Shown: one piece after another, positions 57,044 through 58,687 of the stretch
Layout: each line of letters starts with the position of its first letter
How positions within the stretch are numbered: position 1 is the stretch's first letter
Assembly (NCBI GenBank): GCA_030647955.1
Contig: JAUSIQ010000004.1
Coordinates: 36,533-100,532, forward strand
Source: a bacterium
GTDB lineage: Bacteria; Patescibacteriota; Minisyncoccia; 2-02-FULL-40-12; IGHO2-12-FULL-4
DNA: 64,000 nucleotides
Direction: 5' to 3'
The notes under the pieces: generated by a model
The model's input: only the letters and a program-made list of their open reading frames with translations
Told to the model about the DNA's origin: nothing
The model's database searches: none
Program-made: the position numbers and the translations under genes

Positions 57044-57944
57044 CCAAAATGCCCATAAAAATGGGATTTTTTTATACCATCTTCATTTTTGTGTCAATTT
57101 TTTAAGAAATGTGTCACGAATAAGTGCCAGTTTTTTATTCATAATCTTCTTAAAAATCAAGGAAAATAAGCATAATTATGAATTTATGTCACAAATACTT
57201 GACAAGATTATGAAAGAGGAGTATACTGTATGTATAAGCTGAGATGAAGTTCGGCGGGGGCCAGAGGAACATCGCTGTCAAAGCTGGCTGACGCTCAAAC
57301 CAACCATTACTGGAAAGCTCGTTAAATCAGGGTAAAAGTGGTCTTTCCGCGCAAGCCGAAAGCCATTTTATTAAATCCTTGGTTTGCTAAACGGCTAACC
57401 GGTCGTCGAAGGAACGCGATTTCTCTTCGGCACAGGTCAGTTTTTCCGTCAAAAGCGGATTTTACAACCAAACAAATCCTTCGGAACGCTAAAATTAACC
57501 AGAGTGTTTCAAAGGATGAGGATGTTCCTTGTAGGAACATCCGGGAAGAATCCCCATCTTTCCGGACGTTCTTATAAATTTGACATTCCTCCTGGGTCCC
57601 ACAGCGGAACTAAGCCGGGCACCATTATGGGGATAGTGGTGCTGCGCGGGCTGATTGCCGTTGGAGACCGGACCAAAGTGTCCGGATAGGGTGATGGCAG
57701 TCACCTAAGTGAGCGGAACAACTCCGCTCACTCTCACTCAGGGGGAAAGGTATTATACGAGCCGAAGACGTGACTCGGCTCCCCATCAAAGTTTTCAGTG
57801 CTTTATAAATTTAGCATATGCCAGTTTTATAAAGCATGGTGAAGATTTTGATGGGGAGATGGGGGCGAACCCGCCCAAGTTTTGCCAAGCAAAATTTAGG
57901 CGGGCGAATTGTTCGCCGTCCAAATTCTTTGACAAGGAGATAGC

Positions 57945-58334
57945 ATGACAAATCAGTTGGTCGCGATTGTTGCCTGTGTGTTCGAGGGCTGCAAGGTGCG
58001 GATGGCCGAGGAGAGGGCTTTTGTTCCCGCGGTCGACGATATCCGGAAAGCCATTGGGCGCGCGGTGACGCCAATCGATTTGGCCGATCACATCTATTGC
58101 GGGTATCATTCCCGCCTTGCCCGCGGCACGGGCATGAGGATGTACGGCTTCGTCGGCACCAGGCGACTCCTCGAGGAGAGGGTCGCCGACCATCAGAAGT
58201 CCGGGAGCGTTTTTGCGAAGTACTCCCAGACTAAGGTGGGCATGGCCATGGCGGCCGTGAAGATCGTCAACAAAGCCGAAACCCACTCGAAGAAGCGGAG
58301 AAAGGAGGCCGATGCGACCAGTTGTGGTGGGTAA
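57945..58334 (+). CDS. Hypothetical GC-rich protein (129 aa)
   Basis: Strong RBS context TTTGACAAGGAG plus ATG. About 58% GC against a background near 45%. No recognised motifs. Confidence 0.4.
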   Translation: MTNQLVAIVACVFEGCKVRMAEERAFVPAVDDIRKAIGRAVTPIDLADHIYCGYHSRLARGTGMRMYGFVGTRRLLEERVADHQKSGSVFAKYSQTKVGMAMAAVKIVNKAETHSKKRRKEADATSCGG

Positions 58335-58687
58335 GCGGATGTACTGGGAAGCGGACGGAATATTGTTCGCGACTCGGAAAGCCGCCCTCGAATACCTCCG
58401 AGGAAAGTAGGGGTATCGAATTCCCGCGTTAAGGGTTGCCCTGAATCAAATCGTCGCAGGGTGTAAATGAGTCGGCGGTTGGGAATATTTCTCGATTTAA
58501 CCCAACAGAATAAAAAAGAATCGTCCTCGGGAGAGGTAAAATCTGGCCTGCCGTTTTTTGGCAGACCGCTCCACCAAAGTCTTTGGTGCTTTATAAAACT
58601 AGCATATGCTAAATTTATAAAGCATTGGGAAGATTTTGGTGGGGAGGTGCCAGCTGATAGTCCGCGCCCCCATTTCTTAGGACGTAC

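What the first reader, a model, noticed from the sequence alone, without database searches (positions are those of the whole stretch)
57787..58647. Pair of direct repeats of about 72 nt, each with a 36-bp near-perfect palindrome, flanking a GC-rich gene
Copy A (57787-57859) and copy B (58575-58647) are about 85% identical. Each contains the palindrome GCTTTATAAA-N-TAGCATATGC-N-TTTATAAAGC, followed by GAAGATTTTG(A/G)TGGGGAG.

Copy A lies about 85 nt upstream of a 129-aa ORF (57945-58334) that is about 58% GC in a genome near 45%. A 23-aa ORF follows at 58337-58408. Copy B lies about 40 nt upstream of a TTGCTA-N17-TACAAT promoter for a small basic ORF.

Possible interpretations:
- Operator sites for one dimeric regulator controlling both units.
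- Terminal repeats or att-like boundaries of a small acquired island.
- Hairpin RNA elements.

The repeats also generate artefactual ORFs in several frames (CFIKLAYAKFIKH peptides in three track ORFs).
Basis: seen in the sequence. Interest (0 to 1): 0.5.

Follow-up and report, generated by a model that had tools for sequence, protein, structure and literature searches.

The report
tRNA-end-like RNA junction hairpins
The two repeats are copies of a conserved RNA hairpin that imitates the closed end of a tRNA (as at the junction of split tmRNA genes) and marks the borders between RNA units in a candidate-phyla bacterium; the eye-catching palindrome is only a recent, flipped insertion in its loop.

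Summary
In detail: two 79-nt direct repeats (57783-57861, 58571-58649; 84% identical) flank a GC-rich 129-aa gene.

- **Outer stem.** It reads CUCC-A-CCA-AAG...AUUUUGGU-GGGG and follows a GC-rich clamp hairpin. Related Patescibacteria loci keep this two-hairpin module at the same places, with strong covariation.
- **Inner palindrome.** The 38-nt palindrome is absent from all relatives. In copy B it is the reverse complement of copy A, so it is a lineage-specific loop insertion, not an operator.
- **Match to tmRNA.** The outer-stem sequence is identical over 23 nt to the junction of circularly permuted tmRNA genes (28 of 28 metagenome hits). There, tRNA-processing enzymes cut the precursor.
- **Not a tmRNA.** The window modules lack a T-loop, a D-loop analogue and a tag frame.
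- **A relative.** In one related locus, four or five such modules punctuate a Ro60 operon.

Best reading: sense-strand RNA processing or 3'-end modules that mimic a tRNA acceptor minihelix and separate RNA units. No known RNA family matched at either threshold. The processing step itself is inferred, not shown.

The parts
57199..57227 (+). Promoter-like site (TTGACA-17-TATACT) that probably drives the + strand transcript holding both repeats
   Evidence: Scores 11 of 12 in the scan. The region 57149-57251 is conserved in L002-L004 and partly in L052.
57514..57570 (+). Two mutually exclusive hairpins (GGATGTTCC/GGAACATCC versus GGAACATCCGG/CCGGACGTTC), an attenuator-like leader
   Evidence: Read from the sequence. 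Terminator-like hit at 57540-57566. The ACATCCG..CGGATGT hairpin is kept in L002-L004, L049, L051-L053 and L055.
57590..57758 (+). Unit 1: a structured non-coding RNA closed by UCCUGGG/CCCAGGA. It is absent, together with hairpin A, from locus L004.
   Evidence: Consensus fold of 4 loci: 13 of 43 pairs keep pairing through changes on both sides. Its absence from L004 shows in A1. No Rfam match.
57759..57781 (+). GC clamp hairpin A (GAGCCGA / TCGGCTC), in the position a T-arm would occupy
   Evidence: Equivalent hairpins with different sequences (GGCCGAG, GTCGAGC and others) occur in every related module.
57779..57858 (+). Repeat copy A: a closed acceptor-like hairpin. CUCCCC-A(57785)-UCA pairs with UGAU-GGGGAG. 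The predicted 5' end of the next unit is G57853.
   Evidence: CM R1 scores 31.3 bits on the + strand against 14.4 on the - strand.
57799..57836 (.). Inner 38-nt palindrome, copy A (TGCTTTATAAATTTAGCATATGCCAGTTTTATAAAGCA), an insertion in the apical loop
   Evidence: Absent from the orthologous hairpins of L002, L003 and L051. One mismatch to the reverse complement of copy B.
57899..57921 (+). Conserved 5'-UTR hairpin GGCGGGCGAA..UUCGCCGUCC just upstream of the ORF1 ribosome-binding site
   Evidence: A1 columns 500-525. Present in L002-L004 and L051 as GGCGGCGAAATGGTTTCGCCGCC.
57945..58334 (+). ORF1: a 129-aa protein with a C-x4-C...H-x2-C-x2-H zinc motif, 59% GC, function unknown
   Evidence: Substitutions by codon position are 123/114/212, which indicates coding. 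The family has 44 clusters. AF2 gives pLDDT 86. No PDB, Pfam, PHROG or NCBIfam match. Mostly deleted in L051.
58312..58410 (+). ORF2: a conserved 32-aa protein that overlaps the end of ORF1
   Evidence: Kept in 5 loci with an in-frame 6-nt indel.
58455..58545 (+). Block B: an ultra-conserved non-coding stretch at the 3' end of the unit
   Evidence: Mean identity is 96.9% in 5 loci, against 78% for ORF2. The window copy differs by two 1-nt indels.
58544..58568 (+). GC clamp hairpin B (UGGCCUGCC / GGCAGACCG)
   Evidence: It changes on both sides relative to GTCGAGC/GCTCGAC in relatives.
58569..58646 (+). Repeat copy B: a closed acceptor-like hairpin. CUCC-A(58573)-CCA pairs with UGGU-GGGG. The G3-U wobble is present. 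The predicted cut is 5' of G58641.
   Evidence: CM R1 scores 31.7 bits on the + strand against 22.3 on the - strand.
58587..58624 (.). Inner 38-nt palindrome, copy B, inverted relative to copy A and flanked by TTGG on both sides
   Evidence: 5 mismatches to copy A read directly, 1 read as reverse complement. The outer arms are closer in direct orientation (9 of 42 mismatches against 14 of 42).

Best explanation
Each repeat is the DNA copy of a sense-strand RNA module with two adjacent hairpins.

**Anatomy.**
- First comes a GC-rich clamp hairpin.
- Directly after it comes a long hairpin whose base is a closed tRNA acceptor end:
  - four G-C/G-U pairs (CUCC with GGGG);
  - a purine 'discriminator' (A);
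  - CCA (UCA in copy A);
  - a tail (ACCAAAG) paired to a U-rich leader (UUUUGGU) that ends in U at position -1.
- Clamp plus acceptor pairs stack to about 12-13 bp, the length of a tRNA acceptor/T-arm minihelix.

**Shown.**
- The module is a conserved family in a clade of Patescibacteria.
- It always lies in the sense orientation, in spacers between RNA or gene units.
- Its apical loop (the 'intervening segment') varies freely in length and sequence.

**Inferred.** The long + strand transcript from the promoter at 57199 is cut at these modules. RNase P would cut 5' of GGGG, 3' trimming and/or CCA addition would finish the upstream end, and RNase III may cut first in the long stems. That would separate three units:
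- unit 1, a non-coding RNA;
- the ORF1-ORF2-block B RNA;
- whatever lies downstream.

**The palindrome.** The 38-nt palindrome that drew attention is a lineage-specific insertion or extension in the dispensable loop. It is present in both copies in opposite orientation, through gene conversion in inverted register or through insertion of a tiny palindromic element. It has no operator role.
For: 1. **Structure.** Both copies fold as clamp plus long hairpin.
2. **Conservation.**
   - The same module sits at the same two places in L002, L003 and L051, and at the B site in L004. Further copies occur in L049, L054 and L055.
   - On 14 distinct modules the basal 15 bp are 98.1% paired.
   - 10 of 15 pairs show a change on both sides, and 0 of 500 shuffles reach the observed values.
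   - Clamp stems differ in sequence but always pair.
3. **Strand.**
   - The + strand is more stable than the - strand in 9 of 10 modules, with 35 G-U pairs in all.
   - Every module is on the + strand of its locus as oriented, the strand of the called genes that flank it.
4. **tRNA-end signature.** C7-G and A8-U (the CA of CCA) are invariant. The discriminator is A in 14 of 15 modules and G in 1, with compensation.
5. **Match to tmRNA junctions.**
   - The pattern CTCCACCAAAG-N(10-40)-ATTTTGGTGGGG hit 28 metagenome contigs. All 28 show T-arm, acceptor strand-ACCA, intervening hairpin and GGGG.
   - ARAGORN called a permuted tmRNA gene, with tags such as ANSNQYALAA, in all 8 distinct hits tested.
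   - A covariance model built only from the Patescibacteria modules matches those junctions over its full length at 24-29 bits.
6. **Free-standing 3' end.** In L051 a third clamp + CUCCACCA is followed directly by an intrinsic terminator instead of a 3' arm. Its GGGG partner lies about 250 nt upstream, in hairpin B. So clamp + CUCCACCA behaves as an RNA 3' end.
7. **Punctuation.** In L054, 4-5 modules sit in the spacers of a Ro60 operon.
8. **Precedent.** The closed acceptor stem-loop of M. smegmatis YrlA is cut by RNase P, and CCA is added in vivo (PMC4201824).
9. **Palindrome.** It is absent in all relatives and inverted between the two copies.
Against: - No expression or RNA-end data exist; cleavage is inferred.
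- The clamp loops (3-19 nt) are not T-loops, and no D-arm analogue is present. Only four acceptor pairs precede a mismatch.
- Rfam tmRNA models and ARAGORN do not match.
- In the precursor the CCA is base-paired to the leader. That inhibits RNase P unless another nuclease opens the loop first.
- The G3-U wobble and CCA are lost in copy A and in L003A (CCCC-A-UCA). The G3-U wobble alone is lost in L003B, where it becomes A-U. Aminoacylation identity is therefore not conserved.
- The tmRNA loci were retrieved with a pattern taken from the modules, so part of the covariance-model match is circular.
- The modules used for the covariation count were picked by sequence pattern.
- A simpler hairpin elsewhere in the window (4910-4955, - strand) also scores 23 bits. 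Some of the signal may therefore be generic 'GC base + AU top' hairpin.
Confidence: 0.55

Rival explanations
1. The modules are generic intercistronic hairpins. They would protect upstream RNA from 3' exonucleases or act as U-tract-less terminators (REP/BIME-like or I-shaped terminators). The resemblance to a tRNA end would then be incidental.
For: - They lie in spacers and in sense orientation.
- L002B and L003B are followed within 5-20 nt by T-runs.
- A simpler hairpin, ACCCGCCTAAG..TTTAGGCGGGT, sits between two - strand genes at 4910-4955 and scores 23 bits with the module model.
- Long stems are very stable.
Against: - 13 of 15 modules have no U-tract after the stem.
- This reading does not explain the invariant CA of CCA, the purine discriminator, U at -1, the abutting clamp that gives about 12-13 stacked bp, or the 23-nt identity to tmRNA junctions.
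- Ordinary GC-hairpin + T-run terminators exist in the same region (58960-58992; around 57040).
- There are only 2 copies in 64 kb, and in relatives the modules cluster in one locus.
Confidence: 0.2
2. The modules are recombination sites that bound mobile or exchangeable cassettes. They would be att/attC-like, perhaps derived from an element that targets a tmRNA or tRNA gene end. The ORF1-ORF2-block B unit would then be an acquired cassette.
For: - ORF1 third-position GC is 76%, against 45 +/- 4% for the genome.
- Unit 1 plus hairpin A is present or absent as a block (L004 against L002/L003/L051).
- Homology between loci ends exactly at the 3' base of hairpin B.
- The left border of unit 1 in relatives (ACAAAAGTTTTT) resembles the 5' arm of the module (ACCAAAGTTTTT).
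- Gene content downstream of TrmB differs greatly between relatives.
- Islands commonly duplicate tRNA or tmRNA gene ends (PMC4383910 abstract).
Against: - No integrase or recombinase was found among the flanking ORFs that were scanned.
- No attC core (RYYYAAC/GTTRRRY) is present.
- The units are 0.3-0.8 kb, far smaller than known tDNA islands.
- The same two modules sit at the same places in several diverged genomes, with compensatory evolution of the stems. That points to selection on the fold, not just on a crossover core.
- The ORF1 loss in L051 is an internal deletion, not bounded by modules.
- A distant ORF1 homologue has its own promoter and terminator and no modules.
Confidence: 0.15
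3. The locus is a highly derived or decaying circularly permuted tmRNA gene (or a tandem pair). The hairpins would be its true junctions, and block B or unit 1 the acceptor piece.
For: - The junction sequence is identical over 23 nt to real permuted tmRNA genes.
- Copy B keeps the G3-U wobble, A73 and CCA.
- A related genome (L052) carries a minimal 130-nt standard tmRNA a few kb downstream of the orthologous TrmB gene (64.9 bits).
- No canonical tmRNA is found in the 64-kb window.
- Block B is conserved at the level of a core RNA.
Against: - No T-loop, no GGnUUCGAC element and no tag frame. ARAGORN is negative even at 90% thresholds, and Rfam tmRNA models give no hit at E<=10.
- Sequence downstream of hairpin B is not conserved between relatives.
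- ORF1 and ORF2 have Shine-Dalgarno sites and start codons.
- L054 has at least 4 modules in one operon, which no tmRNA gene would need.
- The rest of the source genome was not available, so a normal ssrA gene elsewhere is likely.
Confidence: 0.07
4. The palindromes are operators bound by a dimeric regulator that controls ORF1 and the downstream small ORF.
For: - A near-perfect 36-38-bp palindrome is shared by both copies.
- Copy B lies 40 nt upstream of a promoter-like site.
- A TrmB-family regulator gene lies 1.1 kb upstream.
Against: - The palindrome is absent from all orthologous hairpins while the outer stem is conserved.
- It sits at the tip of an RNA-type hairpin.
- It is inverted between the copies.
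- No promoter-like site overlaps either copy.
- A much better operator candidate exists at 56668-56703, a perfect 17+17 palindrome over the -35 box of a 12/12 promoter.
Confidence: 0.03

Closest known systems
Junction (acceptor 3' strand-CCA / intervening segment / 5' GGGG) of circularly permuted, two-piece tmRNA genes of Proteobacteria
   Same: - Same order of parts: stem-loop, acceptor 3' strand, A, CCA, hairpin-forming intervening segment, U-rich leader, GGGG.
- 23 nt are identical, including the G-U in AAAG/UUUU.
- The intervening segment varies in length.
- The module model matches tmRNA junctions over its full length.
- Published tmRNA intervening segments can also hold insertions such as a repetitive element or a tRNA gene (PMC11915505).
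   Different: - No canonical T-loop, no D-loop analogue and no tag reading frame.
- Only 4 acceptor pairs before a mismatch.
- Several copies per locus.
- They flank ordinary protein genes and other non-coding RNAs.
- Not detected by ARAGORN or Rfam tmRNA models.
- Found in Patescibacteria, a phylum not among the three clades the tmRNA database paper names as the main holders of permuted tmRNA genes.
YrlA-type bacterial Y RNAs (tRNA-like domain with a closed acceptor stem-loop), encoded next to the Ro60/Rsr gene
   Same: - A stem-loop in the T-arm position is followed by a closed 'acceptor' stem-loop of variable sequence.
- M. smegmatis YrlA is cut by RNase P and receives CCA (PMC4201824).
- In relative L054 the modules lie in and after a Ro60 (TROVE + vWA) operon.
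   Different: [quoted passage not shown]
- The GNCGAAN0-1G motif is not matched exactly (GGCGAA is present but with 2-nt spacing).
- No Ro60 gene was seen among the window ORFs that were annotated.
- No Rfam match at gathering thresholds on L054, nor at E<=10 on window 56400-61600.
tRNA punctuation of mitochondrial polycistronic transcripts, and tRNA-like 3'-end processing (mascRNA type); from established knowledge
   Same: tRNA-shaped elements between genes serve as RNase P / 3'-end processing signals that cut a long transcript into units.
   Different: Here the elements are not tRNAs but minimal closed acceptor minihelices. They occur in a bacterium. Processing has not been demonstrated.
RNase III intercistronic processing hairpins (phage T7 early region, rRNA operon stems); from established knowledge
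   Same: Repeated long hairpins between cistrons of one transcript. The window versions reach about 37 bp of nearly continuous duplex.
   Different: Relatives have only 15-18-bp stems. The conserved CCA, discriminator and GGGG features are not explained by RNase III recognition.
Integron attC sites and REP/BIME elements
   Same: Imperfect palindromes in the same orientation at the 3' side of small, compositionally odd genes. Loci differ by blocks bounded by the hairpins.
   Different: No attC core sites. No integrase among the flanking ORFs scanned. Not dispersed in the 64-kb window (2 copies). The stems evolve by compensatory change.

Membership tests
Circularly permuted (two-piece) tmRNA gene | Junction made of acceptor 3' strand + ACCA, an intervening segment, then 5' GGGG that pairs back | tested here: met
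   All 28 pattern hits show the junction layout, and ARAGORN calls a permuted tmRNA in the 8 tested. CM R1 matches them over positions 1-50.
Circularly permuted (two-piece) tmRNA gene | Canonical T-arm (5-bp stem, GGUUCGAAUCC-type 7-nt loop) before the acceptor strand | tested here: not met
   Clamp hairpins have 6-10-bp stems. Their loops are 3-19 nt long with no conserved sequence.
Circularly permuted (two-piece) tmRNA gene | Tag reading frame with a resume codon, and the GGnUUCGAC element after the 5' acceptor strand | tested here: not met
   ARAGORN finds nothing at default or 90% thresholds, and only noise at 80%. Rfam tmRNA models give no hit at E<=10. The sequence after GGGG is not conserved downstream of copy B.
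Circularly permuted (two-piece) tmRNA gene | G3-U70 wobble, A73 and CCA (alanine identity) | tested here: inconclusive
   Present in copy B and in most modules. Copy A and L003A have G3-C and UCA. L003B has A3-U.
YrlA / bacterial Y RNA | Nearly invariant tRNA-like T and D stem-loops flanking a closed acceptor stem-loop | tested here: not met
   Only the topology (stem-loop followed by closed acceptor stem) is shared. No T or D consensus is present. No Rfam match at gathering thresholds on L054, nor at E<=10 on window 56400-61600.
YrlA / bacterial Y RNA | Encoded next to a Ro60 (rsr) gene, with a Ro60-binding GNCGAAN0-1G motif | tested here: inconclusive
   A Ro60 gene adjoins modules in L054, but none lies near the window copies. 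GGCGAA follows hairpin A with 2-nt rather than 0-1-nt spacing.
Integron attC site | R''/R' core sites (RYYYAAC ... GTTRRRY) and an integron integrase platform | tested here: not met
   Neither arm contains AAC/GTT cores. Neighbouring ORFs are TrmB, a weak DUF4258 hit, a weak NUDIX-like hit or unknown.
REP/BIME-type dispersed palindromes | Many copies dispersed through intergenic regions of the genome | tested here: not met
   Two copies in 64 kb. The covariance-model search adds only one weak simpler hairpin at 4910-4955. In relatives the modules cluster downstream of TrmB. The rest of the genome was not available.
Intrinsic (Rho-independent) terminator | GC-rich stem followed directly by a U-tract | tested here: not met
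   The terminator scan does not list either copy. The 3' flanks are GAGATGGGGG and GAGGTGCCAG.
Palindromic operator of a dimeric regulator | Palindrome conserved at orthologous sites and placed over or beside a promoter | tested here: not met
   Absent from L002, L003, L004, L051, L049, L054 and L055 hairpins. No promoter-like site overlaps it.
MITE-like / palindromic insertion (inner 38-nt element only) | Discrete element with terminal inverted repeats, target-site duplication and copies in either orientation | tested here: inconclusive
   Two copies in opposite orientation. TTGG flanks copy B on both sides, but no matching duplication flanks copy A. The pattern gave no hit in the genome, metagenome or viral collections.
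Island integrated at a tRNA/tmRNA gene end (att direct repeats) | Tyrosine integrase gene inside the island; an intact tRNA or tmRNA gene at one end and its displaced 3' fragment at the other | tested here: not met
   No tRNA or tmRNA gene in the window. The 788-bp unit holds only ORF1 and ORF2, which are not integrase-like.

The most novel reading that the evidence does not exclude
Patescibacteria of this clade use a previously undescribed 'tRNA-end punctuation'.

- Minimal closed acceptor minihelices (clamp + CUCC-ACCA...GGGG) would let the tRNA-processing machinery cut one long transcript into separate mRNAs and non-coding RNAs.
- The new 5' GGGG and 3' CUCC-ACCA ends of each unit could re-pair across the unit into an alanine-type acceptor stem. 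The products would then be tmRNA-like and possibly CCA-repaired or even chargeable.
- The system would be linked to Ro60-based RNA quality control.
- The modules would also act as the seams at which cassettes are swapped between genomes.
Probability: 0.2. Interest if true: 0.85.

Novelty: new variant of a known kind. Interest (0 to 1): 0.62.

Why it matters
If the modules are processing signals, this would be a bacterial counterpart of mitochondrial tRNA punctuation. It would be built from the smallest part of a tRNA that RNase P and the CCA enzyme can read.

It would also show that the junction design of permuted tmRNA genes is reused outside tmRNA. The phylum concerned is not among the three clades the tmRNA database paper names as the main holders of the permuted form.

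The work also exposes a compact, gene-poor locus in candidate-phyla bacteria. The locus is full of conserved RNAs that matched no Rfam family: unit 1, block B, an attenuator-like leader, and an ~870-nt GNRA-rich RNA in a relative. In one genome it is tied to a Ro60 operon.

For annotation, the result removes several false ORFs and a false 'operator'.

Tried and rejected
**Searches that found nothing**
- A first palindrome pattern with the wrong spacer length gave 0 hits; this was corrected.
- The exact palindrome pattern gave no hit in genome, viral or metagenome collections.
- The block B pattern gave no hit in genome or viral collections.
- A looser CCATCAAAR pattern in viral contigs gave 3 chance hits only.
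- Rfam at gathering and E-value thresholds found nothing on the window. The same two thresholds on L049, and gathering thresholds on L002-L004, L051 and L053-L055, also found nothing. The only hit in those runs was the L052 tmRNA.
- A search for ORF1 relatives in viral contigs found none.

**ORF1 function**
- ORF1 gave no hits in Pfam, PHROGs or NCBIfam.
- The first AF2 run, with 4 sequences, was unusable (pLDDT 43).
- ORF1 is not tied to the hairpins: a distant homologue has none.

**Readings tested and dropped**
- A tag peptide or a permuted or standard tmRNA spanning the units. No plausible tag was found, and downstream sequence is not conserved.
- A riboswitch (unit 1) with hairpin A as its expression platform. 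This does not explain the identical module at the 3' end of the operon, and the parts occur independently in L004 and L051.
- A permuted group I intron-exon arrangement. This could not be tested because custom sequences cannot be scanned with Rfam.

**Method note**
- The first MAFFT alignment of modules (A7) was out of register and was replaced by A8.
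Full report
**1. Observation**

The repeat finder reports two 79-nt direct repeats at 57783-57861 and 58571-58649, 84% identical.
Shuffled sequence gives no such matches.
The tail pairs with CTCCCCATCAAAGTTTTCA on the 5' side (19-nt arms, 89% complementary). Each repeat is therefore one roughly 80-nt hairpin with the palindrome at its tip.
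- Folded as RNA, the + strand gives -49 and -52 kcal/mol (z -7.7 and -9.1). The - strand gives -37 and -42, because several pairs are G-U.
- A relaxed structural scan and a covariance-model search find only these two modules in the 64-kb window.
- ORF1 (57945-58334) is 59% GC, with third-position GC of 76%. The 35 large ORFs of the window average 45 +/- 4%.
- The small downstream ORF is really a conserved 32-aa ORF at 58312-58410.

**2. Source and relatives**

- ORF1 is identical to a hypothetical protein of an unclassified MAG.
- TrmB homologues of the neighbouring regulator are named Yanofskybacteria or Patescibacteria. The window is therefore candidate-phyla (Patescibacteria) DNA, and it carries housekeeping genes such as SecA and an AddA-like helicase.
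- Three ORF1 homologues (66-70% identity) and several TrmB orthologues gave related loci L002-L004 and L049-L055.

**3. What is conserved and what is not**

In L002, L003 and L051 a hairpin sits at both orthologous places. L004 has only the downstream one.
- The outer stem is kept: CTCCACCAAAG...ATTTTGGTGGGG.
- The inner part differs in every case, with loops of 7-46 nt. None contains the window palindrome.
- Each hairpin is preceded by a GC hairpin whose stem sequence changes while pairing is kept (GAGCCGA, GGCCTGCC, GGCCGAG, GTCGAGC, GCACGAC, GCGTCACG and others).
- More distant loci hold the same two-hairpin module: L049 at 11426; L054 at 12951, 13630, 15672 and 15993; L055 at 3693.
- On 14 distinct modules the basal 15 bp are 98.1% paired. 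Ten of 15 pairs show a change on both sides, and no shuffle of 500 reaches the observed values.
- Caveat: the modules were picked by pattern, and the sequences are related.
- The + strand is the more stable strand in 9 of 10 modules.

**4. The palindrome**

- The inner 38 nt of copy B differ from copy A at 5 positions when read directly. Read as the reverse complement they differ at only 1.
- The outer arms are closer in direct orientation, with 9 of 42 mismatches against 14 of 42.
- The inner element is therefore a separate piece, inverted between the copies and confined to this lineage. It lies in the part of the hairpin that varies freely elsewhere.
- Copy B is flanked by TTGG on both sides. 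Copy A has no such duplication.
- Two origins remain open: gene conversion in inverted register, which is possible because the outer arms are themselves near-palindromic, or insertion of a tiny palindromic element.
- An operator role is not supported.

**5. What the outer stem resembles**

The 5' arm reads ...CUCC-A-CCA and the 3' arm reads UGGU-GGGG. That is a tRNA-type acceptor end (G1-C, G2-C, G3-U, G4-C, discriminator A, CCA) closed on itself.
- A scan of metagenome contigs with CTCCACCAAAG-N(10-40)-ATTTTGGTGGGG gave 28 hits. All 28 show the same layout: T-arm, acceptor strand-ACCA, a hairpin-forming intervening segment, then GGGG..TTCGAC.
- ARAGORN called a circularly permuted tmRNA gene, with normal tags, in every one of the 8 distinct hits it was run on.
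- The tmRNA database paper states that this gene form is cut by tRNA-processing enzymes into two pieces. It also notes that intervening segments may carry insertions.
- A covariance model built only from the 15 Patescibacteria modules, with loops replaced by GAAA, recovers all real modules at 23-45 bits. It also matches the tmRNA junctions over its whole length at 24-29 bits, always better on the sense strand.
- Part of this is circular, because the tmRNA loci were fetched with a module-derived pattern. The match of the clamp hairpin to the T-arm is the independent part.

**6. Not a tmRNA**

- The clamp loops are not T-loops. No GGnUUCGAC element or tag frame follows.
- ARAGORN and the Rfam tmRNA models are negative.
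- The sequence after copy B is not conserved between relatives.
- L054 has four or five modules in one operon.
- L052, a relative, has a separate minimal 130-nt standard tmRNA.

**7. How the modules are used**

The window reads as follows.
- A promoter lies at 57199 (11 of 12).
- An attenuator-like leader follows.
- Unit 1 comes next. It is a structured RNA in which 13 of 43 pairs are compensated.
- Module A follows unit 1.
- A conserved 5'-UTR hairpin, ORF1 and ORF2 come next.
- Block B is a 91-nt stretch, 96.9% identical in five loci against 78% for ORF2.
- Module B closes the unit.

The parts occur independently.
- L004 lacks unit 1 and module A.
- L051 lacks most of ORF1.
- L049 has no ORFs between its modules but holds about 870 nt of GNRA-rich RNA.

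Two further observations bear on function.
- In L051 a third clamp + CUCCACCA is followed directly by an ordinary terminator. Its potential GGGG partner lies about 250 nt upstream, in module B. This is the best indication that clamp + CUCC-ACCA is an RNA 3' end.
- In L054 the modules lie in the spacers of a GC-rich operon that starts with a Ro60 (TROVE + vWA) gene.

Clamp plus acceptor pairs add up to 10-14 stacked base pairs, mostly 12-13. This count was made by hand. It matches the length of the tRNA acceptor/T-arm helix that RNase P and the CCA enzyme measure (established knowledge).

A precedent exists: the closed acceptor stem-loop of M. smegmatis YrlA is cut by RNase P and receives CCA in vivo.

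**8. Mechanism proposed**

The modules are sense-strand RNA processing or end-forming signals that mimic a closed tRNA acceptor minihelix.
- Cutting 5' of GGGG and trimming to the discriminator/CCA would separate the units.
- Shown: the structure, its conservation, its strand bias, its position and its sequence identity to tmRNA junctions.
- Inferred: the cleavage, the enzymes and any role of the CCA end.
- Loss of G3-U and CCA in copy A, with compensating changes that keep the stem, argues that pairing is the conserved requirement, not alanine identity.

**9. Rivals**

- **Generic stabiliser or terminator hairpins.** These remain possible. A simpler hairpin at 4910-4955 scores 23 bits. But the modules lack U-tracts and carry tRNA-end features that this reading does not explain.
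- **Recombination seams.** This fits the block-wise differences and the odd composition of ORF1. But no recombinase or core site was found, and the stems evolve by compensation.
- **A decayed permuted tmRNA.** The failed defining features make this unlikely.
- **The operator reading.** Rejected.

**10. ORF1**

- ORF1 belongs to a small family of 44 clusters with a C-x4-C...H-x2-C-x2-H motif.
- Its predicted fold is confident (pLDDT 86). It has no match among solved structures and no profile-library match.
- A distant member lies between rplK and gatB without modules.
- Its function stays unknown, and it is not needed to explain the hairpins.

**11. Verdict**

- The finding is real and is more than a repeat pair.
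- It is a member of an apparently undescribed family of tRNA-end-like junction hairpins in Patescibacteria: it matched no Rfam family, and four full-text literature searches turned up no description. It is closest in design to permuted tmRNA junctions and to the closed acceptor stem of YrlA.
- The palindrome itself is incidental.

Noticed in passing
window 56668-56717: A perfect 17+17-nt palindrome, CAAGAGGATTGTCAAAT / ATTTGACAATCCTCTTG, covers the -35 box of a 12/12 sigma-70 promoter. It lies 20 nt after the TrmB stop codon. This is a far better operator candidate than the finding. A half-site copy lies at 57574-57594.
   Followed up: partly
window 56724-57045: A GC-rich non-coding RNA candidate lies between that promoter and a GGGGCGC...GCGCCCC + T-run terminator. 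A homologous stretch follows TrmB in L049, L051 and L054. It holds a Shine-Dalgarno site plus a tiny ORF (MGGAL*, MGGW*, MGW*, MPPGAL*). No Rfam match.
   Followed up: partly
window 57514-57570: Two mutually exclusive hairpins (GGATGTTCC/GGAACATCC versus GGAACATCCGG/CCGGACGTTC) sit downstream of the 57199 promoter, an attenuator-like arrangement. The ACATCCG..CGGATGT hairpin is kept in all related loci examined except L054.
   Followed up: partly
window 58455-58545: Block B is a 91-nt non-coding stretch, 96.9% identical in five loci whose neighbouring ORFs are about 76-78% identical. It contains GUUGGG/CCCAAC and CCUC/GAGG hairpins. Its function is unknown.
   Followed up: partly
L052:14331-14460: A 130-nt minimal standard tmRNA (Rfam RF00023, 64.9 bits) has a canonical tRNA-like domain, only about 51 nt of internal sequence and no encoded CCA. 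It lies 3.6 kb downstream of the orthologous TrmB gene in a related Patescibacteria genome.
   Followed up: partly
L054:11177-16500: A Ro60 (TROVE + vWA) gene is followed by small genes with no recorded Pfam hit, 52-58% GC against 38-50% in the flanks. The spacers hold four canonical modules and one variant (CUCUCC-A-GAA at 14352-14395).
   Followed up: partly
L049:10530-11400: About 870 nt of gene-free, GC-rich sequence with many GCAA-tetraloop hairpins lies between two module-type hairpins. This is a large structured RNA candidate with no Rfam match.
   Followed up: no
window 4910-4955 (- strand): The hairpin ACCCGCCTAAGTTTTT...AAAATTTAGGCGGGT lies between two - strand genes, directly before a TTGACG-N17-TATACT promoter. 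It scores 23 bits with the module model but has no clamp hairpin and no CCA.
   Followed up: partly
window 57945-58334: ORF1 belongs to a small family (44 clusters) with a C-x4-C...H-x2-C-x2-H motif. Its predicted fold is confident and has no structural match. Third-position GC is 76%, in a genome that averages 45%.
   Followed up: yes
window 58661-58680 versus 56974-56993: TCCGCGCCCCCATTTCTTAG after copy B is 80% complementary to the 5' arm of the terminator of the upstream non-coding RNA. It looks like a leftover terminator half just before the 58688 promoter.
   Followed up: no
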